From: Nitrospirota bacterium
GTDB lineage: Bacteria; Nitrospirota; Thermodesulfovibrionia; Thermodesulfovibrionales; JdFR-85
Assembly: GCA_015485235.1 (NCBI GenBank)
Contig: WFTX01000234.1
Coordinates: 1 to 32,431, forward strand
Direction: 5' to 3'
DNA length: 32,431 bases
The position numbers were made by a program, and so were the translations under genes. The notes beneath the pieces are model-generated. The model made no database searches, was not told where the DNA came from, and saw only the letters and a program-made list of their open reading frames with translations. The first letter of the stretch is position 1. Every line of letters begins with the position of its first letter. This document shows, piece by piece, positions 15,039 through 28,651 of the stretch.

Positions 15039-15400
15039 GAGGTCGAGGTCAAGTTGAGGTCGAGGTTGAGGTCAAGGTTGAGGAAAGCGGGTAGCGTGAA
15101 GGGAACTGTAGAGTGGAAGTGCGGAAGACTAATGGAACACAGATGAACACAGAAAAACGGGATTCACACTGATATAGAAAAGTTTAGCGTGTAGCGTATA
15201 GGTCGATACGACCAGGCGGGTAGTGGGTAGTTTTGAGATTATTCAGGATTTTAATCTGTGTAAATCTGTTTGTTTCTGTGTCATCAGTGTTCTATTGTTT
15301 AGAGATTTGAATTTTGAATTTGTTTAGGATTTAGAGTTTAGGATTTAGGATTTGTTTTAATCAGTGTAAATCCGTCTGTTTCTTTGTTAGTCTGTTTTGG
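15039..15400. repeat. Composite intergenic repeat element made of cascades of short tandem 'words', plus an internal inverted repeat
   Basis: 15039-15083 is about 3.7 copies of a (GAGGTCRAGGTT) unit. GTAGCG-type words follow at 15088-15100 and again at 15183-15230. 15134-15173 (GGAACACAGATGAACACAGAAAAACGGGATTCACACTGAT) is the inverted counterpart of two direct copies at 15253-15293 and 15359-15398 (AATCWGTGTAAATC..TCTGTTTCT..). 15305-15355 is tandem TTTGAATT and TTTAGGAT words. Confidence 0.85.
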
Positions 15401-15547
15401 GGAATTTTTCCGCAATAGCATGGGGAATCTTTCCTCGATTTGCCTTTCCGGTTTACAGATTCTTCAGAACCAGGGTTCTTTGTGTCCTTCTTGTTCTTAG
15501 TGGTTTAATACAAGATATCTGTGAAAACAATGGTGTATAATTTCTGT

Positions 15548-16438
15548 ATGAAGAGTACGATCGTAGCCGGAATGCTTGGTGCTGGGAAGACTACCTTCAT
15601 TTCCAATTATCTCAGGGAGAGAAGGGAGAAGGTAGTCGTTCTTGTGAACGACTTCGGGAAACTTGGTATCGACGGTGAGATCATCTCATCCGACGGATAT
15701 GAGTGCATAGAACTTCCGAGCGGGTGCGTCTGCTGCACCCTTAAGTATGATTTCGTTACAACCATAGGGAAGGTGCGGGATGAACTGTCCCCCGAGCACC
15801 TGATAATAGAGCCCAGCGGTGTTGCCTCCCCGTCGGCAGTGATAGAGGCCCTTGAACTGTCAGGGATAAGGAATGTCTCTGTGGTGCTTGTCGTGGACAT
15901 AAACGACTTTCTGGAAGTTCATGAAGCTGATATGTACGGGAGATTTTTTGAGGACCAGGTACGATATGCCGACCTGGTTCTTCTCAATAAGGCCGACCTT
16001 TCTGACAGTGAGAAGATAGGAAAGTGCAGGGAGATCATTTCAGAGTGGAACCCCCTTGCCCTTATACTCGAGAGTAAGTATGGGAGGATCAGTTCGGAGA
16101 TACCTGAGGGGAGCGAAAAGCGCTTGAACGATCATTCAGGAGGGGATTCCCACATCCACTGTGAAACCATTGCTTTAGTTTTAGGATCCGAACCAATTGA
16201 TTTTAATGTTGTTTCTGCATTCTATAATGATCTGAATGCTTCCAGTTACGGTAAGATTATCAGGGCCAAGGGGCTATTTATAACAGACCGGGGCAATTAC
16301 AGGATGGATATTGCCGGGGGGAGGGTATCGGCTGAACCGTTCAAGGGAGATCTGTATGAGAGCCGCATTGTCCTGATAGGTGAGGAGATTGACGAAGAAG
16401 AGGTGAGGGCGAGGGCTCAGGGGATCAAAGATGCCTGA
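15548..16438 (+). CDS. CobW/HypB/UreG-superfamily (G3E, COG0523-type) metallochaperone GTPase
   Basis: P-loop GMLGAGKTTF, then VNDFG, the metal motif GCVCCTL, IIEPSGVA and the NKADL GTP-specificity motif, followed by a CobW C-terminal domain. The start is uncertain: GTG 15521, ATG 15530 or ATG 15548. None has a clear SD. Confidence 0.85.
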   Translation: MKSTIVAGMLGAGKTTFISNYLRERREKVVVLVNDFGKLGIDGEIISSDGYECIELPSGCVCCTLKYDFVTTIGKVRDELSPEHLIIEPSGVASPSAVIEALELSGIRNVSVVLVVDINDFLEVHEADMYGRFFEDQVRYADLVLLNKADLSDSEKIGKCREIISEWNPLALILESKYGRISSEIPEGSEKRLNDHSGGDSHIHCETIALVLGSEPIDFNVVSAFYNDLNASSYGKIIRAKGLFITDRGNYRMDIAGGRVSAEPFKGDLYESRIVLIGEEIDEEEVRARAQGIKDA

Positions 16439-16510
16439 AATCAGGGTGTAGTCCGTTGGTTCTGGTCAGGAGACCGGAATTCCCTTTGGGAACTCAATGA
16501 TTAAAAAACA

Positions 16511-16539
16511 TTGACAAACGCCCCGTAATATGATAATAT
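16511..16539 (+). promoter_or_regulatory. Candidate sigma-70 promoter
   Basis: TTGACA (16511-16516), a 17-nt spacer, then TAATAT (16534-16539). It lies about 58 nt upstream of ATG 16597, which has a strong AAGGAGGAGG ribosome-binding site. Confidence 0.55.
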
Positions 16540-16596
16540 TTCTTCATCATAGAGAAAACCGTTGGTTTCTTAACCAAAAAAGGAGGAGGTCGATTA

Positions 16597-17286
16597 ATGT
16601 CAGAAGAGAAGAAAAGGGGTTTTGAGAAGAGACTGGCTGCCTACGCAGCGGCAGCAGCAGGTGTGATGGCTGTTGCACCTGCTGCAGATGCGGCAATACA
16701 GTATAGTGGCACGCAGAACCTGACAGTAAACTCGTCAAATTCAACTGTTCTAGTTGATCTTAATAATGATGGGACAAATGATTTTTCTTTCACCTACTCT
16801 TCTGATGTGTATGGTTCTCCAGGCATGATAATTAGAACATTAAATGGGAGCTTTATAGGTAATAGCTCTGCCAATTTGGATGCCGCGAATTTATCATCAG
16901 GATATTCTATTCGCTCAAATCTCTCTTCACCTTATGGATGGTGGACTGGCTACGAGCCCCTTGCGGGATCAGGCTCTATTACAGATGGAAGTTTCAACTA
17001 TGATGGTGCCCAGGGCTATATTGGTGTGAGGTTTACGAGTGCGACCTGTAACAACGGGAGTTACCACTACGGCTGGATCCAGTGGAGGACGGATACGAGA
17101 GCAACCCAGGGAACAATCATCGACTGGGCATATGAGGATCAGTGCGATACAGCCATCCTTGCCGGTGCCGGTGCACTACAGCAGCAGGTATCGGTTCCCT
17201 CGCTGAACGAATGGGGGATGCTTGCTCTGATCAGTCTTCTTGCAGGCGGTGGGATGCTCGCCATGAGGAGAAGGCAGGAGGCCTGA
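16597..17286 (+). CDS. Secreted protein with an IPTL-CTERM / PEP-CTERM-like C-terminal sorting signal
   Basis: 229 aa. The N-terminus has an Ala-rich signal region (LAAYAAAAAGVMAVAPAADA). The C-terminus VPSLNEWGMLALISLLAGGGMLAMRRRQEA is motif + TM helix + Arg cluster and matches the IPTLSEWG-type signature. The core contains YIGVRF...HYGWIQW. Confidence 0.65.
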   Translation: MSEEKKRGFEKRLAAYAAAAAGVMAVAPAADAAIQYSGTQNLTVNSSNSTVLVDLNNDGTNDFSFTYSSDVYGSPGMIIRTLNGSFIGNSSANLDAANLSSGYSIRSNLSSPYGWWTGYEPLAGSGSITDGSFNYDGAQGYIGVRFTSATCNNGSYHYGWIQWRTDTRATQGTIIDWAYEDQCDTAILAGAGALQQQVSVPSLNEWGMLALISLLAGGGMLAMRRRQEA

Positions 17287-17321
17287 GATCGCCTGACAGG
17301 CAACAGATTCAGATAAACACG

Positions 17322-17359
17322 ACAGAAGGGGCAGTTTTTATCTGCCCCTTCTGTTTTTA
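17322..17359 (+). terminator. Rho-independent terminator
   Basis: A perfect 13-bp stem, ACAGAAGGGGCAG (17322-17334) with CTGCCCCTTCTGT (17342-17354), a 7-nt loop, then TTTTT. Confidence 0.85.
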
Positions 17360-17507
17360 ATGAGGCAAACCGCCTTATCTTCCTGATGTCGGTTAGCGGC
17401 ATTATCCCGGGAAGGATCGGTATGGTTATCCCCTTCTTTTCTGCCCTGTCCAGGAGGTCGTAGAGGTACCGGTTGTCAAAGAACATCCGGGTGATGGCAA
17501 AATCTCC
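17358..17507 (-). pseudogene. metF: Internal remnant (~50 codons) of a methylenetetrahydrofolate reductase (metF) gene
   Basis: The minus-strand frame reads GDFAITRMFFDNRYLYDLLDRAEKKGITIPILPGIMPLTDIRKIRRFASL. It matches the conserved MetF block (GAdfaITQlFFDn..y..F.dr...GI.vPIiPGImPi......krf). The frame opens with a stop 13 codons upstream and loses similarity after ...RFASL, where it runs into the antisense of the terminator. No N- or C-terminal MetF sequence is present. Confidence 0.7.
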
Positions 17508-17514
17508 CTGATCT

Positions 17515-18060
17515 TCATGAGTCTGTGTTGCCTTCCGTTCCTGTTATACTGATTTCACCATTGATATTGACAGGTCTTATAAGACTGTCAACCACAGGAC
17601 AGTGGGCTATAACCCTTTCCGCAAGGGTCCTGACCTTTTCCTCTTCCTCCGGCGATTCTATTTTTAACGAGTACCGTATTCCGCTGAACCCTGCAGGTAC
17701 GGTATCATCCACCATGAAGAGACCCCGGAGGTCGAGTTCCCCTTCTATTTCAATGGAGATGGAATCTATCCGGAGCCCTTCATGGACGGCGAATTCGTAG
17801 AGTGCTCCTTCAATGCAGGCGGCAAGGGCGGCGAGGAGGAGTTCAATCGGGTTGGGGGCCTGGTCAGTACCACCGGCCGGCTCGGGGTAGTCCGCCTTCA
17901 CTGTGTGCTTTCTTACACTGGTCTCGGTGTAGAGCCCGTAGACGTGCCTTGAAGAGACCCTTGGCTGATACCGTGCCGTCTCAGGTTTCTTCCTGAAGAG
18001 CGCTATCCTTTTTGAAACAATCCTTTTCAGTTTCTCATTGTCGTAGGCGGCTTTCTCCAT
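17515..18060 (-). CDS. OsmC/Ohr-family protein with both conserved Cys and an N-terminal extension
   Basis: 181 aa. Motifs PNPIELLLAALAACIEGAL and ERVIAHCPVVDSL (the two OsmC-family cysteines). About 60 aa of N-terminal extension. Confidence 0.8.
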   Translation of the reverse strand: MEKAAYDNEKLKRIVSKRIALFRKKPETARYQPRVSSRHVYGLYTETSVRKHTVKADYPEPAGGTDQAPNPIELLLAALAACIEGALYEFAVHEGLRIDSISIEIEGELDLRGLFMVDDTVPAGFSGIRYSLKIESPEEEEKVRTLAERVIAHCPVVDSLIRPVNINGEISITGTEGNTDS

Positions 18061-18147
18061 TCATACCTCCTAAAGATTTTTTTGTGGTTGCAGTTATATC
18101 AGTTATGATATGTTTTTTGCAGAAAACAATCAGAACGGACAATAACC

Positions 18148-18163
18148 TGCAAGAATCATGCAA
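18148..18163 (-). promoter_or_regulatory. Weak candidate sigma-54 (-24/-12) promoter facing the 17515-18060 OsmC gene
   Basis: The minus strand reads TTGCATGATTCTTGCA against the consensus TGGCAC-N5-TTGCA. Spacing is correct and the -12 TTGCA is perfect, but the -25 G is a T. It lies about 77-90 nt upstream of the ATG at 18060. Confidence 0.3.
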
Positions 18164-18173
18164 ACAGTAACAT

Positions 18174-18203
18174 TTGACAAGGTCCTACTCGGGGGAAGAT
18201 AAT
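18174..18203 (+). promoter_or_regulatory. Candidate sigma-70 promoter facing the sigma-54 activator gene
   Basis: TTGACA (18174-18179), an 18-nt spacer, then GATAAT (18198-18203). It lies about 215 nt upstream of ATG 18418. Confidence 0.35.
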
Positions 18204-18417
18204 AAACATAAACATAGCATAAACAGGCGGGGAACCATACCCTCAAGCCTTCTCCAGAACCGATGAGATATTTCAGGATAAGCAGTAGCGGAGGACTTAA
18301 CCCCGGGTGGTATCCTGATTCAGGGAATGTCACCTTACGCTAAGGTATCGCTGGAGAGGCTTTCGGGCATAACTCCCCGCCATTTTCGAGCGATTTTATG
18401 CAACTGTAAAGTAAACT

Positions 18418-19920
18418 ATGAGTGAGAAAGAATACAAAGAGGTAATAGAAAGACAGAACAGGAAGCTTTCAATCCTCTACGATATAGCCATTACGGTAAG
18501 CAAGTCCCTGAACCTCAAGGAGATCCTGAGCAGTGCCCTTGACCGAGTCATCGAGTTCATGGGTGTTGACTCCGGGGTCATATATGTCATAAACGAGGAG
18601 AACCTGGAAATGCTACCCGTGGTCTTCAGGAATCTTTCTGATGAAGTAGTAGAGGATCTGACCAGAAACAGGGTCAGGGTCGGTGAGTGCATGTGTGGAA
18701 ATATTGCACAGTTTAATCGTGAGGTGATAATCAATGAGAAGGCTTCCGAGGACAGGCGTTTTACAAGGGAGACCCTGAAACGGGAGGGCATGGAGTTCTA
18801 TGCCGGGATCCCCCTCTATATCCGTGGAAGAGTGGTTGGTGTGCTCTGTGCAATAACCCATAAGCCTTACAGGCCGAAACCTGATGATATAGAGATTCTC
18901 CGTGCCGCCTCGGTCCCGATCGCCCTTGCCATTGAGAATGCAAGAATGTACGAATCTCTGAGGGAAGAGATTGAACGGATGGGCCAGGTATCTGATTTTT
19001 CGAATATCGTCACAAACAGCCCGAAGATGCTGAGGGTCCTTGACCTTGTCCGCAAGGTCCTCAATGTTCCAACAAGTATTCTTCTCTGTGGAGAAAGCGG
19101 GACAGGTAAAGAACTGATAGCCCGGGCGATACACTACAACAGTACCAGAAAGGAGGGTCCCTTTATACCTGTAAACTGTGCCGCCATTCCCGATTCCCTC
19201 CTTGAGTCAGAACTCTTCGGATACGTGAAGGGGGCCTTTACAGGTGCCTCTGGAGAGAAGAAGGGACTTTTTGAGGCCGCTGACGGAGGAACGCTCTTTC
19301 TTGACGAGATTAACTCCATGAGTGAGAGCCTTCAGTCCAAACTCCTCCGCTTTCTGCAGGACAGGCAGTTTTACAAGGTCGGCTCTACAACTCCCATTTC
19401 AGTGGATGTCAGGGTGCTCGCAGCTACCAACCAGGACCTGGACAGGGCTGTAAAGGAGTCACGGTTCAGGAAAGATCTCTTCTACAGACTGAATACCATG
19501 AAGATCTCCCTCCCTCCCCTGAGGGAGAGAGTAGAGGATATTCCCCTGCTTGCCAGGTATTTTATTGAGCGTTTGAATGCAAGGCTTAGAAGAAATATCA
19601 AGGGCATAACGGCCGGGGCGCTCAGAACACTCTCTCTTTATGAGTGGCCCGGTAATGTGAGAGAACTGGAAAACGCTATTGAGCATGCCATGATAATGAC
19701 AGAGGGTGAGTACATAACATTTGAAGACCTCCCTGAATCGGTAAGGCCTGACAGGGAGAGCCCCGATGATATATCACTGGAGTCGATTGAGAGAAGGCAT
19801 ATATTGAACGTACTGAAAATGACAGGAGGGGAGAAGAAAAAGGCTGCTGAACTTCTTGGGATCAACCCCGTTACCCTCTGGAGAAAATTGAAGGCCTACG
19901 GATTGAATGATATTGCATAA
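18418..19920 (+). CDS. Sigma-54-dependent transcriptional activator (GAF sensor, AAA+ domain, Fis-type HTH)
   Basis: 500 aa. N-terminal GAF-like domain. AAA+ Walker A GESGTGKE, the sigma-54 contact loop GAFTGA, Walker B LFLDEI, and WPGNVRELEN. The C-terminal HTH is KKKAAELLGINPVTLWRKLK. Confidence 0.92.
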   Translation: MSEKEYKEVIERQNRKLSILYDIAITVSKSLNLKEILSSALDRVIEFMGVDSGVIYVINEENLEMLPVVFRNLSDEVVEDLTRNRVRVGECMCGNIAQFNREVIINEKASEDRRFTRETLKREGMEFYAGIPLYIRGRVVGVLCAITHKPYRPKPDDIEILRAASVPIALAIENARMYESLREEIERMGQVSDFSNIVTNSPKMLRVLDLVRKVLNVPTSILLCGESGTGKELIARAIHYNSTRKEGPFIPVNCAAIPDSLLESELFGYVKGAFTGASGEKKGLFEAADGGTLFLDEINSMSESLQSKLLRFLQDRQFYKVGSTTPISVDVRVLAATNQDLDRAVKESRFRKDLFYRLNTMKISLPPLRERVEDIPLLARYFIERLNARLRRNIKGITAGALRTLSLYEWPGNVRELENAIEHAMIMTEGEYITFEDLPESVRPDRESPDDISLESIERRHILNVLKMTGGEKKKAAELLGINPVTLWRKLKAYGLNDIA

Positions 19921-19948
19921 TGCAATGTTTAAGTCGTGCAAAATTGCA
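19911..19948. promoter_or_regulatory. Two palindromes: a possible activator-binding (UAS) site, or a weak terminator for the activator gene
   Basis: ATTGCAT-A-ATGCAAT (19911-19925, perfect 7-1-7, spanning the stop codon) and TGCAA-AA-TTGCA (19937-19948). They lie about 190-225 bp upstream of the candidate sigma-54 promoter at 20134-20150. Confidence 0.35.
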
Positions 19949-20133
19949 TTATGAAGTTTCAATGGCCTGTGCTACTACAGGATTTCTACATTCTGCATAT
20001 AAAACAAGCTCTGTCCCAATCTAAAAGAAATTCTCTCTGCTGCCTGTAACCTCTGGATTAAAAAAGATTTTTCTGAAGTTATCCCCTGCCTAACAATAAC
20101 ACGGCAAGTTGTCGGAGCTGCCATTGAGTTTGA

Positions 20134-20150
20134 CAGGTATGATTGTTGCT
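20134..20150 (+). promoter_or_regulatory. Candidate sigma-54 promoter for the OsmC-like/DsrE-like gene pair
   Basis: CAGGTATGATTGTTGCT has GG (20136-20137) and GC (20148-20149) at canonical -24/-12 spacing, and the -12 element is TTGCT. It lies about 36 nt upstream of ATG 20186 (ribosome-binding site AGAGGAGG). Confidence 0.45.
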
Positions 20151-20185
20151 TTGTTTTAAGGAAATACTTTAGAGGAGGTAAGAAA

Positions 20186-20716
20186 ATGGCAGAGATCAAC
20201 GGACTCAAGACAGAATGCCTGCTCCAGGTCATCGAGCAGGTAAAGGCGAACTGGGAGATTGGAAGGACCGTCTGGAAGGCATCTGCACAATGGGAAGGTG
20301 GCTTCAAGGTAAAGACATCATCAAGAGAATTCACAATCGGTTTTGATGAGCCTGAGATGCTTTGCGGTACAAACACAGCGGCGAATCCCGTTGAGATAGT
20401 ACTGCAGGCTTATGGAGCCTGCCTGACGATCGGGTATGTGATGAATGCCGCAGCCAGGGGAATTACGCTCCATGATGTCCAGATAGAACTGGAAGGAGAG
20501 ATAGATCTTCCTGGATTCCTGGGACTTGAACCACCGGAGTCACTCAATATGGACAAGCTTCCAGGTTACAAATCAATCACTGTGAAGACACGTCTGAAGG
20601 GTGATGCCGATGCAGATACACTCAGGCAACTGCATGAGCACGTCATCGGGACCTCGCCTGTGGGTACGACCCTTACCCGTCCTGTCTCAATCAAGACTGA
20701 AGTAGAGGTGGGGTGA
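20186..20716 (+). CDS. OsmC-family protein lacking the second conserved Cys
   Basis: 176 aa. The motif ANPVEIVLQAYGACLTIGYV retains the first Cys. The position equivalent to ...HCPV... reads HVIGTSPVGTTL. Confidence 0.85.
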   Translation: MAEINGLKTECLLQVIEQVKANWEIGRTVWKASAQWEGGFKVKTSSREFTIGFDEPEMLCGTNTAANPVEIVLQAYGACLTIGYVMNAAARGITLHDVQIELEGEIDLPGFLGLEPPESLNMDKLPGYKSITVKTRLKGDADADTLRQLHEHVIGTSPVGTTLTRPVSIKTEVEVG

Positions 20717-21121
20717 GTGGAGACCTTGATTGCAGAGAGAGAGCAGGGCATGGAAGAACGGGAGATATTTGTAGTTCTCTGTGCATCAGGGTTTAATGAT
20801 GTTGCAAGGGCCCGTTCTGCCTTGATGTTTGCCGCTCTGGCAGCAACGGCAGAATGCAGGACCATCCTCTATGCCGTGCAGGAGTTTGTGGAAGTAATGG
20901 TAAAGGGCGCCATTGAGGAAAAAGAGGCCCCATCATCGGGTCCTTCACTCTCCCAGAGACTCGAGGAGGCCCTTGATGCCGGAGTGGAGATCCTTTGCTG
21001 CACCCAGACGATGGCCAACAAGGGGATAACCGAGGATGACCTGATAGAAGGTGCCAGGCCTGCAGGTGCAATGACACTCATAGACATAGCCACAAAGGCC
21101 CGCGGTGTCCTCTCCTTCTGA
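20717..21121 (+). CDS. DsrE/DsrF-like family protein (putative sulfur-relay / redox partner)
   Basis: 134 aa. GTG start at 20717 directly after the OsmC stop, with a GAGGTG ribosome-binding site; an alternative ATG is at 20750. It has a small alpha/beta-like pattern IFVVLCASGFND...MFAALAA...ILCCTQTMANKG...GAMTLID. Confidence 0.55.
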   Translation: METLIAEREQGMEEREIFVVLCASGFNDVARARSALMFAALAATAECRTILYAVQEFVEVMVKGAIEEKEAPSSGPSLSQRLEEALDAGVEILCCTQTMANKGITEDDLIEGARPAGAMTLIDIATKARGVLSF

Positions 21122-21184
21122 GTTCGCATAAGTATGTAGGTGTTGTTTCGCTTGTTTATTTGTTAAGCAGATGCATCCCTCCCC

Positions 21185-21220
21185 GACGGGGGCAGTCAGA
21201 ACCTGCCCCCGTCTTTATTA
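21185..21220 (+). terminator. Rho-independent terminator
   Basis: GACGGGGGCAG (21185-21195) pairs with CTGCCCCCGTC (21203-21213) around a 7-nt loop, followed by TTTATTAT. Confidence 0.8.
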
Positions 21221-21330: not shown

Positions 21331-22494
21331 ATGATGGCCGGAGAGTGTGGGACCATCCTCGTTGTTGATGACGATGAGAGAAACATCCGACTTCTAAGGG
21401 CCTTTCTTGAACCGGAGGGGTACGAGATTTCAGAGGCGACTAACGGGTGGGATGCCCTCAGGATATACAGGGAATCAATGCCTGACCTGGTTCTGCTTGA
21501 TATCATGATGCACGATATGGATGGTTATGAGGTCTGCCGGAAGATAAGGATGGAAGAGACCGACATTCATGTGCCTGTAATAATGGTTACAGCTCTGGAG
21601 GAGAGAGAAGAGAGGGAAAGGGCTGCCGAGGTCGGTGCCGATGATTTCATTACAAAACCAGTGGACAAAACAGAACTTATTTCCAGGGTGAAATCGCTCC
21701 TCAGGATAGCCTCCTATCAGAGGAGGCTTCATTTCAAGAACATGGAACTTCTGCGTATTAACGAGAGGCTTGAGAAAATCCAGAAAGCAAGGGAAGAACT
21801 GATACATATGATCATTCACGACCTGAAAAATCCACTGACAGGGGTTTACGGGAATCTTGAACTTATGATGATTTCCAGAGATACCCTTTCAGAACACCAG
21901 CAATCACTGCTGAAGAAGGCATTGATAGCCTGTGACAGGATCATGAATATGATACAGAATGTGCTGGATGTCTACAAGATTTCAGAGGGAAGGCTCATAC
22001 CACGGCTGTGTGTGGTGGAACTGAAGAGGCTTCTGGATGATATCCTGGATAACTTCCAGATGAAGGCTGAGGTCAAGGGGATTGATATACACCTCGATTG
22101 TAGACATGATCTGCCCATGCTGACCACTGATCCGGAGATTTTTACAAGAATAATGGGAAATCTACTATCCAATGCAATAAGACACAGCGAAAAGGACGGT
22201 CAGATACTGGTGGAAGTGAGAAGGGTGGATGATATGATTACCGTCTCTGTCTCAGACTGCGGCCCTGGTGTGCCAGATCATCTGAAGGAAAGAATCTTTG
22301 ACCGCTTTGAACAGGCAAGGCTTGAGGGGTACCAAAAAGAGACGGGGAGTGCCGGCCTTGGCTTGACCTTTTGCAGGCTTGCCGTTGAAAGCATGAACGG
22401 GAGGATCTGGGTGGAAGACAATCCTGACGGGAAAGGGAGCTGTTTCATTTTCTCTCTTCCCGTAATGCCTCCTGAGGGGCATCCCACTTCATGA
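21331..22494 (+). CDS. Response-regulator/histidine-kinase fusion (N-terminal REC, then HisKA and HATPase_c)
   Basis: 387 aa. REC motifs ILVVDDDERN, DLVLLDIMMHDMDG, ITKP. H-box HDLKNPL. ATP-lid motifs NLLSNAIRHS, DCGPGV and GSAGLGLTF. Confidence 0.9.
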   Translation: MMAGECGTILVVDDDERNIRLLRAFLEPEGYEISEATNGWDALRIYRESMPDLVLLDIMMHDMDGYEVCRKIRMEETDIHVPVIMVTALEEREERERAAEVGADDFITKPVDKTELISRVKSLLRIASYQRRLHFKNMELLRINERLEKIQKAREELIHMIIHDLKNPLTGVYGNLELMMISRDTLSEHQQSLLKKALIACDRIMNMIQNVLDVYKISEGRLIPRLCVVELKRLLDDILDNFQMKAEVKGIDIHLDCRHDLPMLTTDPEIFTRIMGNLLSNAIRHSEKDGQILVEVRRVDDMITVSVSDCGPGVPDHLKERIFDRFEQARLEGYQKETGSAGLGLTFCRLAVESMNGRIWVEDNPDGKGSCFIFSLPVMPPEGHPTS

Positions 22495-22868
22495 CATCCG
22501 ATAGTTCAGGGAAGACGATCCTTGTGGTTGAAGACAATCCCGTAAACCTCAAGCTCGTTAAAGCACTGCTTGAGATTGGGAAATATAATGTTATTTCGGC
22601 TTATGACGGAGAAGGAGCCTTGGAGGTTCTTGTCGATCATACTCCTGACCTGATACTCATGGATATACAACTCCCGGGTATCGATGGAATTGAGACAACG
22701 AGGCGGATAAAGGCGGATCCCCGTCTCCGGAATATCCCTGTCATTGCCCTTACGGCCTTTGTGCTGGAGGATGAGAAGAGGGATATCTGTTCGATCTGTG
22801 ATGGCTATATCCCCAAACCGATTGATACAAGGCAGTTTCTGACTATAATTTCTGATATCATTGGATAG
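22491..22868 (+). CDS. Single-domain CheY-like response regulator
   Basis: 125 aa. Motifs ILVVEDNPVN, DLILMDIQLPGIDG, ALTAF and IPKP. Its ATG overlaps the upstream TGA (ATGA). Confidence 0.9.
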   Translation: MTSDSSGKTILVVEDNPVNLKLVKALLEIGKYNVISAYDGEGALEVLVDHTPDLILMDIQLPGIDGIETTRRIKADPRLRNIPVIALTAFVLEDEKRDICSICDGYIPKPIDTRQFLTIISDIIG

Positions 22869-22912
22869 AATTATCCAATGACTGTATTAACGATCATCAA
22901 GGAGGATACCCT

Positions 22913-24955
22913 ATGAGCCTCTCATTGTTTCGCAAAAAGAGATCAGAGGCTGTTTTCTTCCTTGCACTGATACTGATATCTTTCCTGAGTCCCGGGACCG
23001 CCCTCTCAGAGGGTTCCGGTGATATCAGGCAGTATATGGAGATGAGTATTGAAGAGCTGATGCAGATAGACGTAGAGAGTGTCTATACAGCATCAAGGTA
23101 TATACAGAATGTTTCAGAAGCTCCGTCTTCTGTAACAGTGGTTACTGCTGAAGAGATAAAGAGATACGGGTACAGAAACCTTGCCGAGGTTTTACAATCT
23201 GTGAAAGGGATGTATGTTTCCTATGACAGAAACTACCATTACCTCGGGATCAGGGGCTTTTCAAGGCCCGGTGACTATAATTCGAGAGTGCTCCTGATGA
23301 TCGATGGTCACAGGATAAATGACGGTGTCTTCAATACCTCCCCCATCGGTACGGAATTCCCTGTAAATATTGATTTGATAAGAAAGATAGAGATTATCAG
23401 GGGACCGTCCTCGTCACTTTACGGCACTAATGCCTTCTTCGGTGTCATTAACGTGATCACATCCGACGGGGCAGAAAAAGAAGGCCTTCAGGCATCAGGC
23501 GAGATAGGCAGCAATGGATATAATCAGGAAAGACTTTCCTATGGTGGACAATATGGTGGAAATCTTGCGCTCCTCTTTTCGGGCTCCTACTACTCAGGCG
23601 ACGGGAGAGACAAGCTCTATTTCAGTGAGTTCGACAGAGGTGTCACGAATGGCGGCCTTGCCGATGATATTGATCACGACTGGGCGAAAAGGCTCTTTTT
23701 CAAGGTCAGATACGGTGAGCTGGCCCTCCAAGCCATTTATTCATACAGAAAAAAGAACGTCCCTACTGCAACATTCGGGACTGTGTTCAATAACCCGAAT
23801 TACAACACCGTTGATGAATATTATCTCTTTGGGTTGAAATACAGGCACAGATTGTCACGCGGAACAGACCTTTCCCTCCGTATCAACTTCAATATATATA
23901 ATAACTATGCTGACTATCCTTACGACTATTCAGATAAGGGAGATCTTACCGATATAGTTATCAACCGGGATATTGCTGAATCTGAATGGATCGGTGCAGA
24001 GTTAGATCTGACGAGGGAGATAAATGAAACAAATAAACTTTCCATGGGGGGAGAGTTCAGGGATGATATACGCCAGTACCAGAAAAACTATGATTTCAAG
24101 ACTTACTTTGATGACTCAAGGAGTTCGTCATCCTGGGCATTCTACCTCCAGGATGAAATATTTCTGAGAAGAGACATCCTCATCAACGCCGGAGTTCGAT
24201 ATGATGACTACGGAAAGGGTAATGATACCATCAACCCCCGTATTGCCTTGATATGGTCTCCCACGGAAACTACAAGCCTGAAACTTGTTTACGGGACAGC
24301 CTTCAGGAAACCAAATGTATATGAGATGTACTATGCCGATGAAGAGATGACACAGAAAGGTAATCCTGATCTTCAGGCGGAAAAGATAGGCACCTATGAA
24401 ATGGTTTTTGAACAGAAACTGAATGACAATCTCAGAGGCCATGTTTCCCTCTACCACTACAGGGTTAAAAATCTCATAGTCCTTGAAACAGATCCTTCTG
24501 ATGGTCTTCTTGTATACAGAAACAGCGGTGAAGCAAAGGCGAAAGGTCTCGAACTTGAGCTGGACTACCGGAACGACCAGGGTGTTTCCGGCAGGATTTT
24601 TTACACATATCAGGATGCAACCGACGTTCAGACCGGGGAGAGACTGACAAACTCACCGCTCCATGTTGGGGGCCTGTTGCTTTCTTCTCCTCTTCTCAAA
24701 AAAAGACTGTTCCTGAGTACTGAGTTGATATATACTTCAAGAAGAAAGACCCTTTCCGGCAACTGGACCGGAGATAGTACGCTTGTTAACATGACAGTCT
24801 ACGGGAAGGGACTACTGAAGAATCTGGATATCTCATTCAGTGTGTATAACTTGCTGAACCAGAGATACTCCCATCCTGCATCGTCCGAACACCTCCAGGA
24901 CAGCATAGTACAGGACGGTAGGAGTTTCCGACTGAAGGCTACTTATACTTTCTGA
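22913..24955 (+). CDS. TonB-dependent outer-membrane receptor
   Basis: 680 aa with a signal peptide. The plug domain is APSSVTVVTAEEIKRYGYRNLAEVLQSVKGMYVS...GIRGF...IEIIRGPSSSLYGTNA. A long beta-barrel ends with the aromatic terminus RLKATYTF. Confidence 0.9.
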   Translation: MSLSLFRKKRSEAVFFLALILISFLSPGTALSEGSGDIRQYMEMSIEELMQIDVESVYTASRYIQNVSEAPSSVTVVTAEEIKRYGYRNLAEVLQSVKGMYVSYDRNYHYLGIRGFSRPGDYNSRVLLMIDGHRINDGVFNTSPIGTEFPVNIDLIRKIEIIRGPSSSLYGTNAFFGVINVITSDGAEKEGLQASGEIGSNGYNQERLSYGGQYGGNLALLFSGSYYSGDGRDKLYFSEFDRGVTNGGLADDIDHDWAKRLFFKVRYGELALQAIYSYRKKNVPTATFGTVFNNPNYNTVDEYYLFGLKYRHRLSRGTDLSLRINFNIYNNYADYPYDYSDKGDLTDIVINRDIAESEWIGAELDLTREINETNKLSMGGEFRDDIRQYQKNYDFKTYFDDSRSSSSWAFYLQDEIFLRRDILINAGVRYDDYGKGNDTINPRIALIWSPTETTSLKLVYGTAFRKPNVYEMYYADEEMTQKGNPDLQAEKIGTYEMVFEQKLNDNLRGHVSLYHYRVKNLIVLETDPSDGLLVYRNSGEAKAKGLELELDYRNDQGVSGRIFYTYQDATDVQTGERLTNSPLHVGGLLLSSPLLKKRLFLSTELIYTSRRKTLSGNWTGDSTLVNMTVYGKGLLKNLDISFSVYNLLNQRYSHPASSEHLQDSIVQDGRSFRLKATYTF

Positions 24956-24975
24956 CTGCCAGGACAAAAACGGAA

Positions 24976-25632
24976 GTGATCGAACGCATATCAGGACATG
25001 AAGAAAACACCGGACCGGGTCTTGCGAACCTGGCAAAAAGAAGTTTTTTTTCAGTCTTTCTGGCAACTCTCTTTCTCTCTATCTTTATCTCTCCTTCTGC
25101 TCACGGTCGGGACAAAGAGTATGTGCCAAAGGAGTATATCGTGAAGGCGGCCATGATATACAAGATGCTCGGGTTCATAACATGGCCTGATGCTGAAGGG
25201 ACGAGCAAGAATCCGATAAATATATGTGTATATGGTAAAAACCCCTTTGGCAGGTATATATATGCCCTTGAGGCAGAACGATTCGATTCAAGGGGGATAA
25301 ATGTTAGAACGGGTTCACGTCTTGAGGACCTTTCAGACTGTCATGTCCTTTTCATCAGTTCAAGTGAGAAGGACCGTCTCGGAAATCTGCTTCCACAGGT
25401 AGAGGGCAAGCCTGTTCTCACAATAAGTGACATAAAGGATTTTTCTCTCTCTGGAGGAATGATTGAATTCATAAAGACCGATCGCAGAATTGCCTTCATA
25501 ATCAATTACGGAAAAGTCCTTGATGCAGGCATAAGAATAAGTTCACGGTTGCTTAAAATTTCAATAAAAGTCTATGACAGGGATGGAAGGGTGATATGGT
25601 CCCAGAACGGGAAAAAGAAGAGGTCCAATTAG
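24976..25632 (+). CDS. YfiR-like periplasmic protein (DUF4154 family)
   Basis: 218 aa with a signal peptide (FFSVFLATLFLSIFISPSAHG). The core YIVKAAMIYKMLGFITWPD...CHVLFISSSE...PVLTISD...GGMIEF matches the pattern I associate with DUF4154/YfiR. The start codon is uncertain (GTG 24976). Confidence 0.65.
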   Translation: MIERISGHEENTGPGLANLAKRSFFSVFLATLFLSIFISPSAHGRDKEYVPKEYIVKAAMIYKMLGFITWPDAEGTSKNPINICVYGKNPFGRYIYALEAERFDSRGINVRTGSRLEDLSDCHVLFISSSEKDRLGNLLPQVEGKPVLTISDIKDFSLSGGMIEFIKTDRRIAFIINYGKVLDAGIRISSRLLKISIKVYDRDGRVIWSQNGKKKRSN

Positions 25633-25670
25633 ATGAATCCGGAACAGGACAAGAATTTCCAGGTTGATTC

Positions 25671-27302
25671 ATGGAGATATTAAAACAATGGCTGAATGAT
25701 CTCAGGTTCAGGACGAAGATAGTCCTGATTGTGATGGTAACAAGCATATCGGTGCTGGCTGTAACCATCCCCCTTTTCGTGGCCAATGAGATCGTCGGGG
25801 TAAGAAGTCAGGTTGTAAATGCCCTTACTTCAGTCGCCGAGATCATTTCCGAAAACTCTAAGGCTGCTCTCCTTTTTGAGGATAAAGATGAAGCGGAAGC
25901 GATTCTCCGCTCTCTGAAGGGGGAGCCCCATATTATTGCTGCTTATCTCTATGACAGAAATGGTCTCCTTTTTGCCAGTTTTCTGAAGGACCGTACCGGC
26001 AGGGGAACTCCATTCAATAAATACCGGGGCAGGAGAGAGCAGCTTCCCAGTTCATGGAAGGACAGTGTGATTTCTGAATATTCTAACATGAGAGAGGGAG
26101 TAAATATGGAGGGTGACCACATAGATGTTTTCAGGAGGATATACCTGGATGAAACACCCATTGGGGCCCTCTATATCGCCTACTCCAGGGAGGCATTCAC
26201 TGAGAAGATAAGAAGGGGGCTTATGATAGGGGGCTTGATCTTCCTTGCATCTGCCGCCATGGCCTTTCTGATCTCAAGAAGGTTGCATACAGTGATAACA
26301 AAACCAGTAGAGAAACTGACTGATACCATGAGACACATATCAGAGAAGAAGGACTTCAAGGAGAGAGTGGAGGCAGACCGGAGGGATGAACTGGGGCTTC
26401 TGATAAGCAGTTTCAATGAGATGCTTGACCAGCTGAAGGCGAGGGACGATGAGCTTACCCGTTACAAGGAACACCTTGAAGAACTTGTAGAAGAGAAGAC
26501 TGCTGAACTGAGGGAGGCCACCAGAAGGGCGGAGGCGGCAAGCAGCGCAAAAAGCGCCTTTCTGGCGAGCATGAGTCATGAACTGAGAACCCCCCTTAAT
26601 GCGATAATCGGTTTCTCAGAAGTCATTCTTGACAGGCACTTTGGTGAAATTAACAGCAGACAGGAGGAATATCTCAATGATATCCTGAACAGTGCCCGTC
26701 ATCTGCTTTCCCTCCTGAATGACATCCTCGATATCTCAAAGATAGAAGCGGGCAAGATGACCCTTAACTACACCTATGCTGATCCTCTGACATTGATTGA
26801 CCGGACCATGACAATGGTGAAGGAGAGGGCCCACAGGAAGAACATCTCTGTATCAGTACGGAAAGGTGAAGTCCCGGATTCCGTCAAGCTTGATGACAGA
26901 AAGATAATGCAGGTGCTCTTCAATCTGCTGACTAATGCTACCAAGTTTACCCCTCCAGGGGGGGAAATCGGGATTTCAATTGATACTGTAAGAATGGATG
27001 AAATTACAGAGATTATTACTGATGAATTCAGGGAGGACCTTGAGGGGCTCCAGTCAAAGGGGTGGGATCATTACCTTATGATCTCTGTGTCAGACAACGG
27101 TCCCGGAGTAAGCCGGGATGCATTCAAAAGGATATTCGAACCCTTTCAACAGGAAGATCCATCAGTGGCGAGGAGGTATGGCGGTACCGGGCTGGGACTG
27201 TCGCTGAGCAAGGAGATAGTTGAGCTTCACAACGGCCTGATATGGGTTGAAAGCCGGAAAGGGGAGGGCAGTGTGTTCAGACTAGTCATCCCTCTTGGGT
27301 GA
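25671..27302 (+). CDS. Membrane sensor histidine kinase (TM, periplasmic CHASE8-like domain, TM, HAMP, HisKA, HATPase_c)
   Basis: 543 aa. TM1 is IVLIVMVTSISVLAVTIPLFVA. The sensor segment SKAALLFEDKDEAEAILRSLKGEPHIIAAYLYDRNGLLFASF resembles the YfiN-type periplasmic domain. TM2 is followed by HAMP. H-box SHELRTPLNAI; N-box and G-box NLLTNATKF, DNGPGV, GGTGLGLS. Confidence 0.9.
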   Translation: MEILKQWLNDLRFRTKIVLIVMVTSISVLAVTIPLFVANEIVGVRSQVVNALTSVAEIISENSKAALLFEDKDEAEAILRSLKGEPHIIAAYLYDRNGLLFASFLKDRTGRGTPFNKYRGRREQLPSSWKDSVISEYSNMREGVNMEGDHIDVFRRIYLDETPIGALYIAYSREAFTEKIRRGLMIGGLIFLASAAMAFLISRRLHTVITKPVEKLTDTMRHISEKKDFKERVEADRRDELGLLISSFNEMLDQLKARDDELTRYKEHLEELVEEKTAELREATRRAEAASSAKSAFLASMSHELRTPLNAIIGFSEVILDRHFGEINSRQEEYLNDILNSARHLLSLLNDILDISKIEAGKMTLNYTYADPLTLIDRTMTMVKERAHRKNISVSVRKGEVPDSVKLDDRKIMQVLFNLLTNATKFTPPGGEIGISIDTVRMDEITEIITDEFREDLEGLQSKGWDHYLMISVSDNGPGVSRDAFKRIFEPFQQEDPSVARRYGGTGLGLSLSKEIVELHNGLIWVESRKGEGSVFRLVIPLG

Positions 27303-28418
27303 CTTCAACCTGTAAGAGGCCTTCAGGAGCCTTCCACCCAATGGTTCATGAGGATGAAGGACTCCATGGGGGCATACCTCCATGCAACAGTAGCATCGTA
27401 TACATTTATCGTAATCAAATTCAATTGCCTTCTTTCCCTTATTGATGGCTCCGGCTGGACAGTGATTCCAGCATTCACTGCAGAGATGACACTTTCCCTT
27501 CAGGACAGGTCTTTCCGTGAGGTGCCTTCTCATGAATCCGTGCATGAAGGCAGGGCCGAATACGACGGGGCCCAGGCTGGGAAGAGAAAGATTCGTTATC
27601 CTGGGGAGGCTGCCCTCAATATCAACCTCCCCGTCTTCGGCATGGTGCTTCATTGCTACCCTGTTTGTCAGGAGATCATCAGGGCTGAGGCCTGCCATCA
27701 TGCAGACCACCATATCCACTGCAATGGGCACGTTTCCACCAACCAGGACACCAAGCCTCCGGGGTTTACCGGACTTGCCGGGGCCGTCCCCTTCCATGCC
27801 TACAATCCCGTCAAGGATTGTTACGGCTGGTGAGAGCCTTTCGGCTATAAGGAATAAAAGTTCCGCAAAACGGACCCTGTCTACCCCTGTCCTCAGATGC
27901 CACTGGGGCTTTCTCATACCCACGATACAGCCGAAAAGGTTCTTCACCCCCAACGTCAGAAGCATCTGGGAATGGGTCTTGAGTTTGGGGAGATTGATCA
28001 GGTGGTCACATTCCAGCGCTTCCCTTGCCACCTCTATCTCTCCAAAGGGAGGACCGATGTCTGCCTTTACCGATTCTCTGAATGGTGTGATCTCGATGCC
28101 CGTTCCCTTAAATAGATCCGGCAAACCGAGGGAGGAGATGATCTTCTGGAAGGAACCCACTGCTGGACTGTCGGATATCCTCACCCTGGCTCCCTTGTCG
28201 TAACAGTAAAATGCAGCATGCCTGATTATTTCCGGATGGGTGCAGACTGCCTGTTCAGGTCTTGAAGGAGCCAGAAGGTTGGGCTTGATAACGACAGTGT
28301 CTCCCCTCTTTATATCCGTTCCACTAAAGCGGTCGAGCAGTTCATACACGCATTCCCTTAAAAGGGGGTTTTCATATTCATCGATCTGTTTTATGATCGC
28401 CTTTTTGTGATTGTTCAT
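27282..28418 (-). CDS. DUF362-domain protein with a C-terminal 2x[4Fe-4S] ferredoxin domain
   Basis: 378 aa. DUF362 motifs IKRGDTVVIKPNLLAPSRPEQAVCTHPEIIRH...ISDSP. The C-terminus has CHLCSECWNHCP and CIRCYCCMEVCP. Its 3' end overlaps the convergent kinase gene by 21 nt. No SD precedes the ATG. Confidence 0.75.
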   Translation of the reverse strand: MNNHKKAIIKQIDEYENPLLRECVYELLDRFSGTDIKRGDTVVIKPNLLAPSRPEQAVCTHPEIIRHAAFYCYDKGARVRISDSPAVGSFQKIISSLGLPDLFKGTGIEITPFRESVKADIGPPFGEIEVAREALECDHLINLPKLKTHSQMLLTLGVKNLFGCIVGMRKPQWHLRTGVDRVRFAELLFLIAERLSPAVTILDGIVGMEGDGPGKSGKPRRLGVLVGGNVPIAVDMVVCMMAGLSPDDLLTNRVAMKHHAEDGEVDIEGSLPRITNLSLPSLGPVVFGPAFMHGFMRRHLTERPVLKGKCHLCSECWNHCPAGAINKGKKAIEFDYDKCIRCYCCMEVCPHGVLHPHEPLGGRLLKASYRLKSPKRDD

Positions 28419-28427
28419 GAAATCGGG

Positions 28428-28636
28428 GATTGGTATATTGGTATATTAGTAATATTAGTATATTGGTGTATTGGTGTACTGGTTATTAGTCCTTCCCCTG
28501 CACGCTATGCGCTACCCGCTAAACGCTTAAAACCTCAGCCTTAGCCTGTTTTTCTCTCCCTGTTCGCTATCCGCTCCATGCTCCACGCTTTTTCTTGACT
28601 CAGCCTCGACCTGCCTCCCCCCTGCCTGACCTCATG
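28428..28636. repeat. Second copy (inverted orientation) of the 'stuttering word' intergenic element
   Basis: TATTGGT/TATTAGT-type tandem words lie at 28430-28490. They are followed by TAGTCCTTCC, then CGCTA(C/T)-type words (GCACGCTATGCGCTACCCGCTAAACGCT, TTCGCTATCCGCTCCATGCTCCACGCT), then CCTCGACCTGCCTC...CTGCCTGACCTC. The reverse complement reproduces the module order of 15039-15175: GAGGTC words, then GTAGCG words, then GGAAG(G)ACTAAT, then ACAC-type words. Confidence 0.8.
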
Positions 28637-28651
28637 TTTTTGCAAGATTTG

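What the first reader, a model, noticed from the sequence alone, without database searches (positions are those of the whole stretch)
15039..28636. The two repeat elements are inverted copies with the same module order, each oriented towards its downstream gene, and they bracket a 13-kb accessory/regulatory block
Seen: the reverse complement of 28428-28636 reproduces the module order of 15039-15175. That order is GAGGTC-type words, then (G)TAGCG-type words, then a shared GGAAG(G)ACTAAT core, then ACAC-type words. The repeated words themselves differ between the copies (AACACAGA versus ACCAATAC/TATTGGT). Each copy reads 5'->3' towards the start of the adjacent gene: CobW at 15521/15548 on the plus strand and DUF362 at 28418 on the minus strand. 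The second copy abuts the ATG with no SD. The bracketed block holds signalling genes, a secreted IPTL-CTERM protein and a metF fragment. The C1/corrinoid genes lie just outside it. Inference: either this is a dispersed promoter-proximal element family, or these are the inverted ends of an old insertion or inversion that split a C1-metabolism locus. No integrase, transposase or tRNA is present, so mobility is unsupported.
Basis: partly seen in the sequence, partly recalled or inferred. Interest (0 to 1): 0.6.

Follow-up and report, generated by a model that had tools for sequence, protein, structure and literature searches.

The report
Dispersed tandem-word intergenic repeat mosaics
The two "inverted repeat elements" are two ordinary members of a family of about 140 fast-changing spacer sequences built from short repeated words that sit between genes all over this Thermodesulfovibrio-like genome, and they are not the ends of an inserted or inverted 13-kb block.

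Summary
Both sequences are made of the same word modules in the same 5'->3' order, and they resemble each other more than shuffled sequence does (0 of 500 shuffles).

The same grammar occurs in about 140 islands across this 2.69-Mb genome. RAGGYY 6-mers come first, then TAGCG 7-mers, then A/C-rich ACCAAT-type 7/8-mers. That order is never reversed (32:0 and 7:0). In gaps between co-directional genes the islands run with transcription: 39:7, 43:11 and 8:0.

CobW and DUF362 are convergent, so two sense-oriented elements must be inverted relative to each other.

Synteny refutes the insertion or inversion reading. The gene order is conserved in the family. A same-genus relative has the same order and most of the block's genes but no repeats. 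The variable cassettes lie between the 3' ends of CobW and DUF362, inside the repeats.

Element 2 is an old insertion into a formerly overlapping gene pair. Most of element 1 is specific to this species.

The canonical sense RNA is unstructured. Copies retained in the sister species show about three-fold fewer point changes than third codon positions (4.4% against 12.9%, pooled). This hints at an RNA-level role but does not prove one.

This scan has already noted the same class in at least seven other Nitrospirota genomes.

The parts
15039..15083 (+). Element 1: RAGGYY hexamer array, about 7.7 units. It is preceded by an A-rich leader ending in CAG, as at other loci.
   Evidence: TRF and the census. 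The sister species G001 lacks this 46-nt stretch.
15084..15133 (+). Element 1: AGCG/TAGCG-type words, then the junction holding GGAAGACTAAT (15123-15133).
   Evidence: The same junction is found in C214.
15134..15175 (+). Element 1: ACACAGA-word module, the 5' arm of a long imperfect hairpin.
   Evidence: It pairs with 15247-15295 in the MFE fold (z = -1.98). Copies occur in C214, C144 and C338.
15182..15231 (+). Element 1: second set of TAGCG-type and GGTAGTG words, with a small palindrome.
15247..15295 (+). Element 1: inverted ACACAGA module, the 3' arm of the hairpin.
   Evidence: It is part of a 161-nt stretch absent from G001.
15296..15354 (+). Element 1: TTTGAAT/TTTAGGA word arrays.
   Evidence: TRF. 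The same words form the arms around an IVP gene at C73:6309-6599.
15355..15394 (+). Element 1: second inverted ACACAGA-like module.
   Evidence: Aligns with C214, C286 and C289.
15399..15520 (+). Not part of the repeat. This is the CobW-proximal segment of the gap, conserved in relatives, and is probably the real regulatory region.
   Evidence: Read by eye in the sequences printed: conserved in G001, and two GGGGAA...TTCC-like boxes recur in G002 and G010. The G000/G001 alignment has only short (9-10 nt) indels here.
28594..28651 (-). Element 2: unique leader directly after the NMT1-like stop codon (28654-28652), plus degenerate RAGGYY words.
   Evidence: Identical to G001 except for one 1-nt indel.
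28554..28593 (-). Element 2: A-run plus the first TAGCG-type word module.
   Evidence: It has a 7-nt word indel relative to G001.
28533..28553 (-). Element 2: second leader (A-run then CAGG) plus two RAGGYY words.
28497..28532 (-). Element 2: second TAGCG heptamer array.
28429..28496 (-). Element 2: the GGAAGGACTAAT junction, then a G-poor ACCAAT-type octamer array of about 7.4 units.
   Evidence: TRF and the census. G001 has 25 nt fewer.
28419..28428 (-). 10-nt spacer with no Shine-Dalgarno-like 4-mer before the DUF362 ATG (28418).
   Evidence: The start codon is supported by relatives' alignments, which begin at query residues 5-16.
16439..27281 (.). The variable accessory slot between the 3' ends of convergent CobW and DUF362. 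It holds the IPTL-CTERM protein, an MTHFR relic, OsmC / sigma-54 activator / OsmC / DsrE, and RR-HK / RR / TonB receptor / DUF4154 / HK.
   Evidence: Pfam and synteny in 11 relatives.

Best explanation
Both sequences belong to a lineage-specific, genome-wide family of intergenic mosaics assembled from tandem 6-9-nt words.

Shown:
- The family has a polar grammar. After a stop codon comes an A-rich leader ending in CAGG, then a RAGGYY array, an A-run, and a TAGCG heptamer array. This unit can repeat. It is then followed either by an A/C-rich, G-poor ACCAAT-type array that ends 5-30 nt before the next start codon (canonical type, element 2), or by T/G-rich inverted ACACAGA modules plus TTTAGGA arrays (second type, element 1).
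- Copies run with transcription of the flanking genes.
- They change between sister species mainly by gain or loss of whole words and modules.
- They can appear in, or vanish from, a gap while the genes stay put.
- The two window copies are inverted relative to each other only because their downstream genes, CobW and DUF362, are convergent.

Inferred:
- Arrays grow and shrink by slipped-strand mispairing.
- Whole modules with their conserved junctions are copied between gaps by recombination or an unidentified copy mechanism.
- Copies persist in the sense orientation because they are co-transcribed as an unstructured spacer or leader.
- I put about 0.4 on a real RNA-level role. In that reading the SD-like purine words sit after the stop codon and a G-poor landing pad replaces a Shine-Dalgarno site before the next start, as at DUF362.

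The 10.8-kb variable gene slot is a separate, ordinary feature.
For: - Census: 82 RAGGYY, 15 TAGCG and 99 ACCAAT-type arrays, against 1, 0 and 22 on the reversed sequence. They fall into about 141 islands.
- Order: RAGGYY before ACCAAT 32:0; TAGCG before ACCAAT 7:0; no mixed-strand neighbours within 120 nt.
- Sense against antisense in co-directional gaps: 39:7 (p = 2e-6), 43:11 (p = 1e-5) and 8:0.
- Position: RAGGYY starts a median 51 nt after the stop codon. ACCAAT ends a median 20-29 nt before the start codon.
- Conserved junction strings are visible in 29 printed loci.
- Element 1 aligns with five other composites at 66-74% identity in the same module order.
- Word-unit indels against G001: 32 nt (four octamers) at C154; 25, 7 and 2 nt in element 2; 46 and 161 nt in element 1.
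- Presence or absence, and word replacement, at C315, C276, C81, C266 and C79.
- Element 2 was inserted into a former ATGA overlap. G002 and four genomes of two other genera have 2-20 nt there.
- No Rfam hit. No promoter or terminator consensus on the sense strand of element 2.
- Sense RNA of 29 canonical copies has mean z = +0.11; element 2 has z = +1.36.
- An SD-like 4-mer precedes 15 of 48 array-adjacent starts, against 48% genome-wide (p = 0.03, crude start calls).
- Retained copies differ at 4.4% of sites, against 12.9% at flanking third codon positions (p = 5e-10).
Against: - Gene calls are my own crude longest-ORF calls, so distances and SD counts are approximate.
- There is no expression data, so co-transcription is inferred.
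- The low-substitution result rests on four loci that were alignable, which is an ascertainment risk. One of the four (C154) goes the other way because of an array register shift.
- Homogenisation toward a family consensus, or a younger age of the copies, could mimic constraint.
- Fast turnover at other gaps argues against any gene-specific function.
- No copy mechanism, target duplication or dedicated enzyme was identified.
- Element 1 lies in a divergent gap, 442 nt from the CobW start and upstream of the conserved promoter-proximal segment. It may not be transcribed at all.
Confidence: 0.7

Rival explanations
1. The mosaics are neutral or selfish simple-sequence DNA with no role. Slippage makes them, and selection merely removes copies in the harmful (antisense) orientation or inside genes.
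For: - The same gap holds different words, or nothing, in the sister species.
- Word families differ between genera.
- There is no structure signal.
- Arrays often sit at contig ends, as hypervariable repeats do.
Against: - Retained copies, including their unique non-repeated leaders, have fewer point changes than synonymous-like sites.
- The fixed module order and conserved junctions at dozens of loci are not expected from independent slippage.
- Arrays replace the SD region of many genes, which must still be translated.
Confidence: 0.35
2. The two elements are the inverted ends of an old insertion or inversion that split a C1-metabolism locus.
For: - They are in inverted orientation.
- The DNA between them is partly accessory, with slightly lower GC (0.45-0.47 at 22-27 kb).
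- It holds an MTHFR relic.
Against: - The same gene order occurs without the repeats in G002.
- CobW and DUF362 are adjacent and convergent in G010, G003 and G014, so the variable slot lies inside both genes' 3' ends.
- Element 1's arrays are specific to G000, whereas element 2 predates the G000/G001 split, so the two have different ages.
- There are about 140 other copies genome-wide.
- No transposase, integrase or tRNA is present.
Confidence: 0.02
3. The arrays are DNA-level regulatory sites, meaning arrays of binding sites for a transcription factor or nucleoid protein near promoters.
For: - Element 1 lies in a divergent promoter gap.
- Tandem words could bind an oligomeric protein.
Against: - Most RAGGYY arrays that could be classed lie in co-directional gaps (46 of 62) and begin a median 51 nt after a stop codon.
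- Some fill gaps that in relatives are only 2-20 nt long, as at NMT1-like/DUF362.
- A strong strand bias is not needed for duplex binding.
- The conserved CobW promoter-proximal segment is separate from the arrays, and sister genomes keep it without them.
Confidence: 0.08
4. The mosaics are solo or hybrid arms derived from hairpin cassettes that carry a 23S_rRNA_IVP four-helix-bundle gene. They act as processing (RNase III-type) sites, or are left behind by cassette turnover.
For: - All five full PF05635 genes in this genome are bracketed by inverted word arrays. These include RAGGYY, ACCAAT-type and TTTAGGA-type arms.
- In G034 a RAGGYY array pairs with its complement after rplL.
Against: - Canonical copies have no complementary partner array and no excess structure.
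- There are only 5-6 IVP genes against about 140 islands.
- The direction of descent, cassette to solo arm or the reverse, is unknown.
Confidence: 0.1

Closest known systems
Start-proximal TAACTGA heptamer direct repeats of Beggiatoaceae, cyanobacteria and Bacteroidetes (MacGregor 2015, PMC4679880)
   Same: - A/C/T-rich 7-8-nt words in tandem.
- Forward orientation, ending a few nt before start codons.
- Shine-Dalgarno sites are rare behind them.
- A post-transcriptional role was proposed but not shown (searches compared).
   Different: - The words differ: there are no tandem TAACTGA repeats here.
- Here the array is the 3' module of a longer polar mosaic with purine-rich modules upstream.
G-rich GGGNATC heptamer repeats of Xanthomonas and Nostoc (Rehm et al. 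2015, PMC4692102)
   Same: - Over-represented between aligned ORFs.
- The G-rich strand is on the coding strand, within about 50 bp of the stop codon.
- Copy number is variable.
- They are not linked to IS elements (searches compared).
   Different: - RAGGYY words have GG, not GGG, so the four-G-tract quadruplex rule is not met.
- The unit is 6 nt.
- It is coupled to other modules in a fixed order.
Cyanobacterial STRR (short tandemly repeated repetitive heptamers).
   Same: Several families of short tandem words dispersed in non-coding DNA of one lineage, with hypervariable copy number.
   Different: A fixed multi-family module order and conserved junctions have, to my knowledge, not been described for STRR.
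BIMEs (mosaics of REP and linker motifs) of enterobacteria and BOX elements of pneumococci. From my own knowledge.
   Same: - Modular mosaics with a variable number of internal units.
- Intergenic and often intra-operonic.
- Co-transcribed.
   Different: - Those are built on palindromic units that fold. The canonical copies here do not.
- The Y1 transposase genes in this genome are flanked by other hairpins.

Membership tests
Long-unit simple-sequence repeat arrays (STRR-like) | Head-to-tail copies of a 6-9-nt unit | tested here: met
   TRF finds period 6 at 15039-15083 and period 8 at 28429-28487. Genome-wide there are 110, 199, 190 and 316 TRF rows (overlapping rows can describe one array) of period 6, 7, 8 and 9.
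Long-unit simple-sequence repeat arrays (STRR-like) | The same units are dispersed genome-wide and enriched outside genes | tested here: met
   77 of 105 GAGGTY-type arrays, 56 of 63 ACCAAT arrays and 15 of 15 TAGCG arrays lie outside ORFs, although about 88% of the genome is in ORFs.
Long-unit simple-sequence repeat arrays (STRR-like) | Copy number varies between close relatives | tested here: met
   Whole-word indels between G000 and G001.
Ends of a transposon, insertion or inversion | Terminal inverted repeats with real sequence homology | tested here: not met
   The best aligned stretch is only 20 nt. Similarity comes from shared words.
Ends of a transposon, insertion or inversion | Relatives lack or invert the bracketed segment at the repeat boundaries | tested here: not met
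   Gene order is conserved without the repeats, and the variable slot lies inside CobW and DUF362.
Ends of a transposon, insertion or inversion | A mobility gene or tRNA target | tested here: not met
   Pfam scans of the 14 ORFs in and beside the block and of six upstream ORFs found none, and there is no tRNA.
REP/BIME-type elements | A palindromic unit that folds as a hairpin | tested here: not met
   Canonical copies have z = +0.11 and element 2 has z = +1.36. Only the ACACAGA modules of element 1 pair.
REP/BIME-type elements | Association with a RAYT / Y1 transposase flanked by the same repeats | tested here: not met
   Two PF01797 genes exist but are flanked by different hairpins.
TAACTGA start-proximal repeats | Tandem TAACTGA heptamers | tested here: not met
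   No tandem TAACTGA repeats in the genome.
TAACTGA start-proximal repeats | Forward orientation just upstream of start codons, with few SD sites | tested here: met
   Sense 43:11. Median 20 nt to the start codon. SD-like 4-mer at 15 of 48 against 48% genome-wide.
G-quadruplex GGGNATC repeats | Four or more runs of at least 3 G | tested here: not met
   RAGGYY words carry GG only.
Known structured RNA family (Rfam) | A match to a curated covariance model | tested here: not met
   No hits at the gathering threshold, and none at E <= 1.

The most novel reading that the evidence does not exclude
The mosaics are a functional, lineage-specific post-transcriptional device. SD-like purine word arrays placed right after stop codons are combined with G-poor, unstructured A/C word arrays that serve as Shine-Dalgarno-independent translation leaders. 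The device is built from the same word families that form the hairpin arms around 23S-IVS-type four-helix-bundle genes. It is kept under sequence constraint where retained.
Probability: 0.25. Interest if true: 0.65.

Novelty: new variant of a known kind. Interest (0 to 1): 0.38.

Why it matters
This removes a false lead: no mobile element or inversion split the C1/corrinoid locus. The real accessory hot spot is the slot between the convergent CobW and DUF362 genes.

It also documents, with numbers, a polar multi-module grammar for long-unit tandem repeats in a Thermodesulfovibrio-like lineage. Three features stand out:
- the module order is fixed;
- the arrays run with transcription;
- where a copy is retained, its sequence is conserved beyond synonymous-like sites.

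In the published cases read here (TAACTGA, GGGNATC) a role is proposed but not shown, and the same is true of STRR as far as I know. A system in which a stop-proximal and a start-proximal array type are joined in one unit is a good place to test whether such repeats act on translation or mRNA fate.

Practically, these arrays break short-read assemblies: 38 of 196 arrays lie at contig ends.

Tried and rejected
- Rfam at gathering and permissive thresholds gave nothing.
- Sigma-70 promoter and intrinsic terminator scans gave nothing on the relevant strand of either element.
- The hairpin/MITE reading of canonical copies was rejected by fold z-scores.
- A RAYT link was rejected, because the Y1 transposases carry other flanking hairpins.
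- Using contig GC skew as a proxy for replication direction is confounded by coding-strand G excess. It shows only that orientation follows the local genes: 13:5 sense even where genes lie on the C-rich strand, and 9:8 in non-co-directional gaps.
- My first ACCAAT regular expression was too loose (control 16 against 20 hits) and was replaced.
- Searches for G001/G002 orthologues of C73:12500-19000 found only repeat hits.
- The MTHFR relic is not a copy of the ORF at 5921-6868.
- Literature searches for such repeats in Thermodesulfovibrio found nothing relevant.
Sub-feature coordinates were therefore read off the rulers.
Full report
**What is in the window.**
The window is a whole 32,431-bp contig (C234) of a 2.69-Mb, 344-contig genome bin with 50.7% GC. 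Its sister species G001 is titled an uncultured Thermodesulfovibrio sp. MAG.

Element 1 (15039-15394, plus strand) contains, in order:
- a RAGGYY hexamer array
- AGCG/TAGCG words
- a junction holding GGAAGACTAAT
- an ACACAGA-word module
- more TAGCG-type words
- the inverted ACACAGA module
- TTTGAAT/TTTAGGA arrays
- a second inverted module

Element 2 (28651-28419, minus strand) starts at the base after the NMT1-like stop codon. It contains, in order:
- degenerate RAGGYY words
- TAGCG-type words
- a second short RAGGYY block
- a TAGCG heptamer array
- the GGAAGGACTAAT junction
- an ACCAAT-type octamer array, which ends 10 nt before the DUF362 ATG

**Is the resemblance more than chance?**
Yes, though it is modest. 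The local alignment score is 28, against 16.9 +/- 2.3 for 500 dinucleotide shuffles (none reach it). There are 40 shared, roughly co-linear 6-mers in the stated orientation and none in the opposite one. The best aligned stretch is only 20 nt, so the two share modules rather than full-length homology. The 11-12-nt 'core' has four genome hits, one of which is probably coding, and is weak evidence on its own.

**The family.**
The same modules are dispersed throughout the genome.
- A stricter census found 82 RAGGYY arrays, 15 TAGCG arrays and 99 ACCAAT-type arrays. On the reversed sequence the counts were 1, 0 and 22.
- These group into about 141 islands, roughly one per 19 kb. Two in a 32-kb window is what chance gives.
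- The module order is a rule. RAGGYY precedes ACCAAT 32 times and never follows it. TAGCG precedes ACCAAT 7:0. RAGGYY and TAGCG can alternate (8 and 5). Arrays of different type within 120 nt are never on opposite strands.
- Twenty-nine printed loci show conserved junction strings: an A-rich leader ending in CAGG before RAGGYY, an A-run then GCG before TAGCG, and GAGTAACC-like strings before the A/C arrays.
- Element 1 belongs to a second composite type with a T/G-rich 3' half. It aligns in the same module order with five other loci at 66-74% identity.

**Orientation and position.**
Gene calls here are my own crude ORF calls.
- In gaps between co-directional genes the arrays are on the sense strand 39:7, 43:11 and 8:0 (p = 2e-6, 1e-5 and 0.008).
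- RAGGYY arrays begin a median 51 nt after the upstream stop codon.
- ACCAAT arrays end a median 20-29 nt before the next start codon, and some run right up to it.
- Orientation follows the local genes even when those genes lie on the C-rich strand of the contig (13:5). It shows no bias in non-co-directional gaps (9:8). GC skew here mostly reflects coding strand, so this is only a weak test against a replication effect.
- CobW (+) and DUF362 (-) are convergent. Two sense-oriented elements in front of them must therefore be inverted relative to each other.
- Element 1 sits in a divergent gap, where either orientation faces a gene start.

**Synteny.**
I mapped the window's proteins onto eleven relatives. 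One order is conserved across the family: methyl-transfer operon (leftward), CobW (rightward), then DUF362 and the NMT1-like gene (leftward), then the GAF-PAS kinase (rightward).
- In one genus (G010, G003, G014) CobW and DUF362 are directly adjacent and convergent.
- Other genomes hold one or both of two cassettes in that slot. Cassette A is OsmC / sigma-54 activator / OsmC / DsrE (G006, G008). Cassette B is the RR-HK / RR / TonB receptor / DUF4154 / HK set: G002 has all but the stand-alone RR, and G004 shows its first three genes before the contig ends. This genome has both.
- The variable DNA is therefore 16439-27281, between the two genes' 3' ends. It is not bounded by the repeats.
- G002, in the same genus, has the same order and most of the block's genes but no repeats. 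Its NMT1-like and DUF362 genes are 2 nt apart in the tblastn map and read as an ATGA stop/start overlap. Its 188-nt CobW upstream gap has no arrays.
- The block's GC is slightly lower (0.45-0.47 at 22-27 kb). It holds a 43-aa MTHFR relic. There is no tRNA.

**History of the two elements.**
- Element 2 is present at the orthologous site in the sister species G001. It is absent from G002 and from four genomes of two other genera, where the gap is 2-20 nt. It is therefore an insertion of about 230 nt into a formerly overlapping or closely coupled gene pair, and it predates the G000/G001 split.
- Between the two species element 2 differs by word-sized indels of 25, 7 and 2 nt, plus a 1-nt indel, and by 7 substitutions in 199 aligned columns.
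- Element 1 is largely specific to G000. G001 lacks the 46-nt RAGGYY array and a 161-nt stretch holding the inverted module and the TTTAGGA arrays, and carries other words instead.
- The CobW-proximal 15399-15520 segment is conserved in G001, and its two GGGGAA...TTCC-like boxes recur in G002 and G010. It is probably the real regulatory region.

**Turnover and constraint.**
I compared ten array-bearing gaps between G000 and G001.
- Four keep the same mosaic, three of them with word-number changes, for example exactly four octamers at C154.
- Four hold different words or modules.
- Two are absent or replaced. C315 shows a clean presence/absence difference of about 120 nt.
- Where retained, point differences are fewer than at third codon positions of the flanking genes: 3.5% against 23.8% (element 2), 1.7% against 10.4%, and 2.7% against 10.0%. 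One locus goes the other way because of an array register shift.
- Pooled, the figures are 4.4% against 12.9% (p = 5e-10).
- This suggests constraint, homogenisation, or younger age. Only alignable loci could be counted.

**Structure and signals.**
- No Rfam family matches, even at E <= 1.
- Element 2's sense RNA folds less well than 188 of 200 shuffles (z = +1.36).
- Twenty-nine canonical copies average z = +0.11 on the sense strand and -0.52 on the antisense strand.
- Element 1 has a modest signal (z = -1.98) from the ACACAGA inverted pair.
- No promoter or terminator consensus lies on the sense strand of element 2. Co-transcription of the NMT1-like gene and DUF362 through the element is therefore likely, but it is inferred.
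- Reverse complements of strong SD sites in the genome imply a canonical anti-SD. No 16S gene is in the bin.
- RAGGYY words contain the GAGGT core of that SD.
- Only 15 of 48 starts behind ACCAAT arrays have an SD-like 4-mer, against 48% genome-wide (p = 0.03).

**Distribution.**
- ACCAATAY arrays occur in the window's genus (72, 19 and 64 matches) and in three of four genomes of a second genus. They were not found in the other 35 relatives searched.
- Runs of four RAGGYY words give 140 matches here and 26 in G001, and are sporadic elsewhere in the order.
- One canonical junction string is found, among 185,579 species representatives, only in G001 (9 loci). Four other hits are chance hits without arrays.
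- Other genera carry mosaics made of other words.

**Comparison with known repeats.**
- The start-proximal half behaves like the TAACTGA repeats of Beggiatoaceae: forward orientation, next to start codons, few SD sites (PMC4679880).
- The stop-proximal half behaves like the G-rich GGGNATC repeats of Xanthomonas and Nostoc: between aligned ORFs, on the coding strand, within about 50 bp of the stop codon (PMC4692102).
- The defining sequence features of both families are not met here.
- STRR, BIME and BOX elements are looser analogues, cited from my own knowledge.
- What is different here is that several word families are joined into one polar unit with conserved junctions.
- Earlier notes of this scan describe the same class in at least seven other Nitrospirota genomes.
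- One lead from those notes was checked here. All five full PF05635 (23S-IVS protein) genes of this genome are bracketed by inverted arrays of these word families.

**Verdict.**
The dispersed-family reading is supported, but the copies are mostly between co-directional genes rather than promoter-proximal. The insertion or inversion reading is refuted. This is a new variant of a known kind of bacterial repeat, and its function is unproven.

Noticed in passing
window 15399-15520: The CobW-proximal part of the divergent gap is conserved in G001, and its two direct GGGGAA...TTCC-like boxes recur in G002 and G010. It is probably the real operator or promoter region and is distinct from the word arrays.
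   Followed up: partly
window 17358-17486 (-): A 43-residue relic of methylenetetrahydrofolate reductase (PF02219 positions 180-222) lies between the IPTL-CTERM gene and OsmC. It is not similar to the ORF at 5921-6868.
   Followed up: partly
window 16439-27281: The slot between convergent CobW and DUF362 is a hot spot for accessory genes. It is empty in one genus, holds cassette A or cassette B in others, and holds both here.
   Followed up: yes
window 16597-17286: The IPTL-CTERM protein is only 56% identical to its G001 counterpart. Most neighbouring proteins are 86-100% identical.
   Followed up: no
G000 C3:862-1173, C73:15048-15359, C72:14998-15306, C6:7613-7927, C73:6309-6599: Every full 23S_rRNA_IVP (PF05635) gene is bracketed by inverted tandem-word arrays. 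Each uses a different word family, including the RAGGYY, ACCAAT-type and TTTAGGA-type words of the window's elements.
   Followed up: partly
G000 C154:17445-17754 and C84:1-320: A separate dispersed repeat of about 210-320 nt has about 25-30 copies in the sister genome G001. It was not characterised.
   Followed up: no
G000 C182:186-554 and C190:1484-1708: Two Y1 (IS200/RAYT-type) transposase genes are each flanked by their own hairpins, which are unrelated to the word arrays.
   Followed up: partly
L001 (G034:C81) about 3390-3470: In a genome of another family, a RAGGYY array directly faces its inverted complement between a gene ending like rplL (L7/L12; by eye, not searched) and the next gene. 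This would form a hairpin, unlike the canonical copies in this genome.
   Followed up: no
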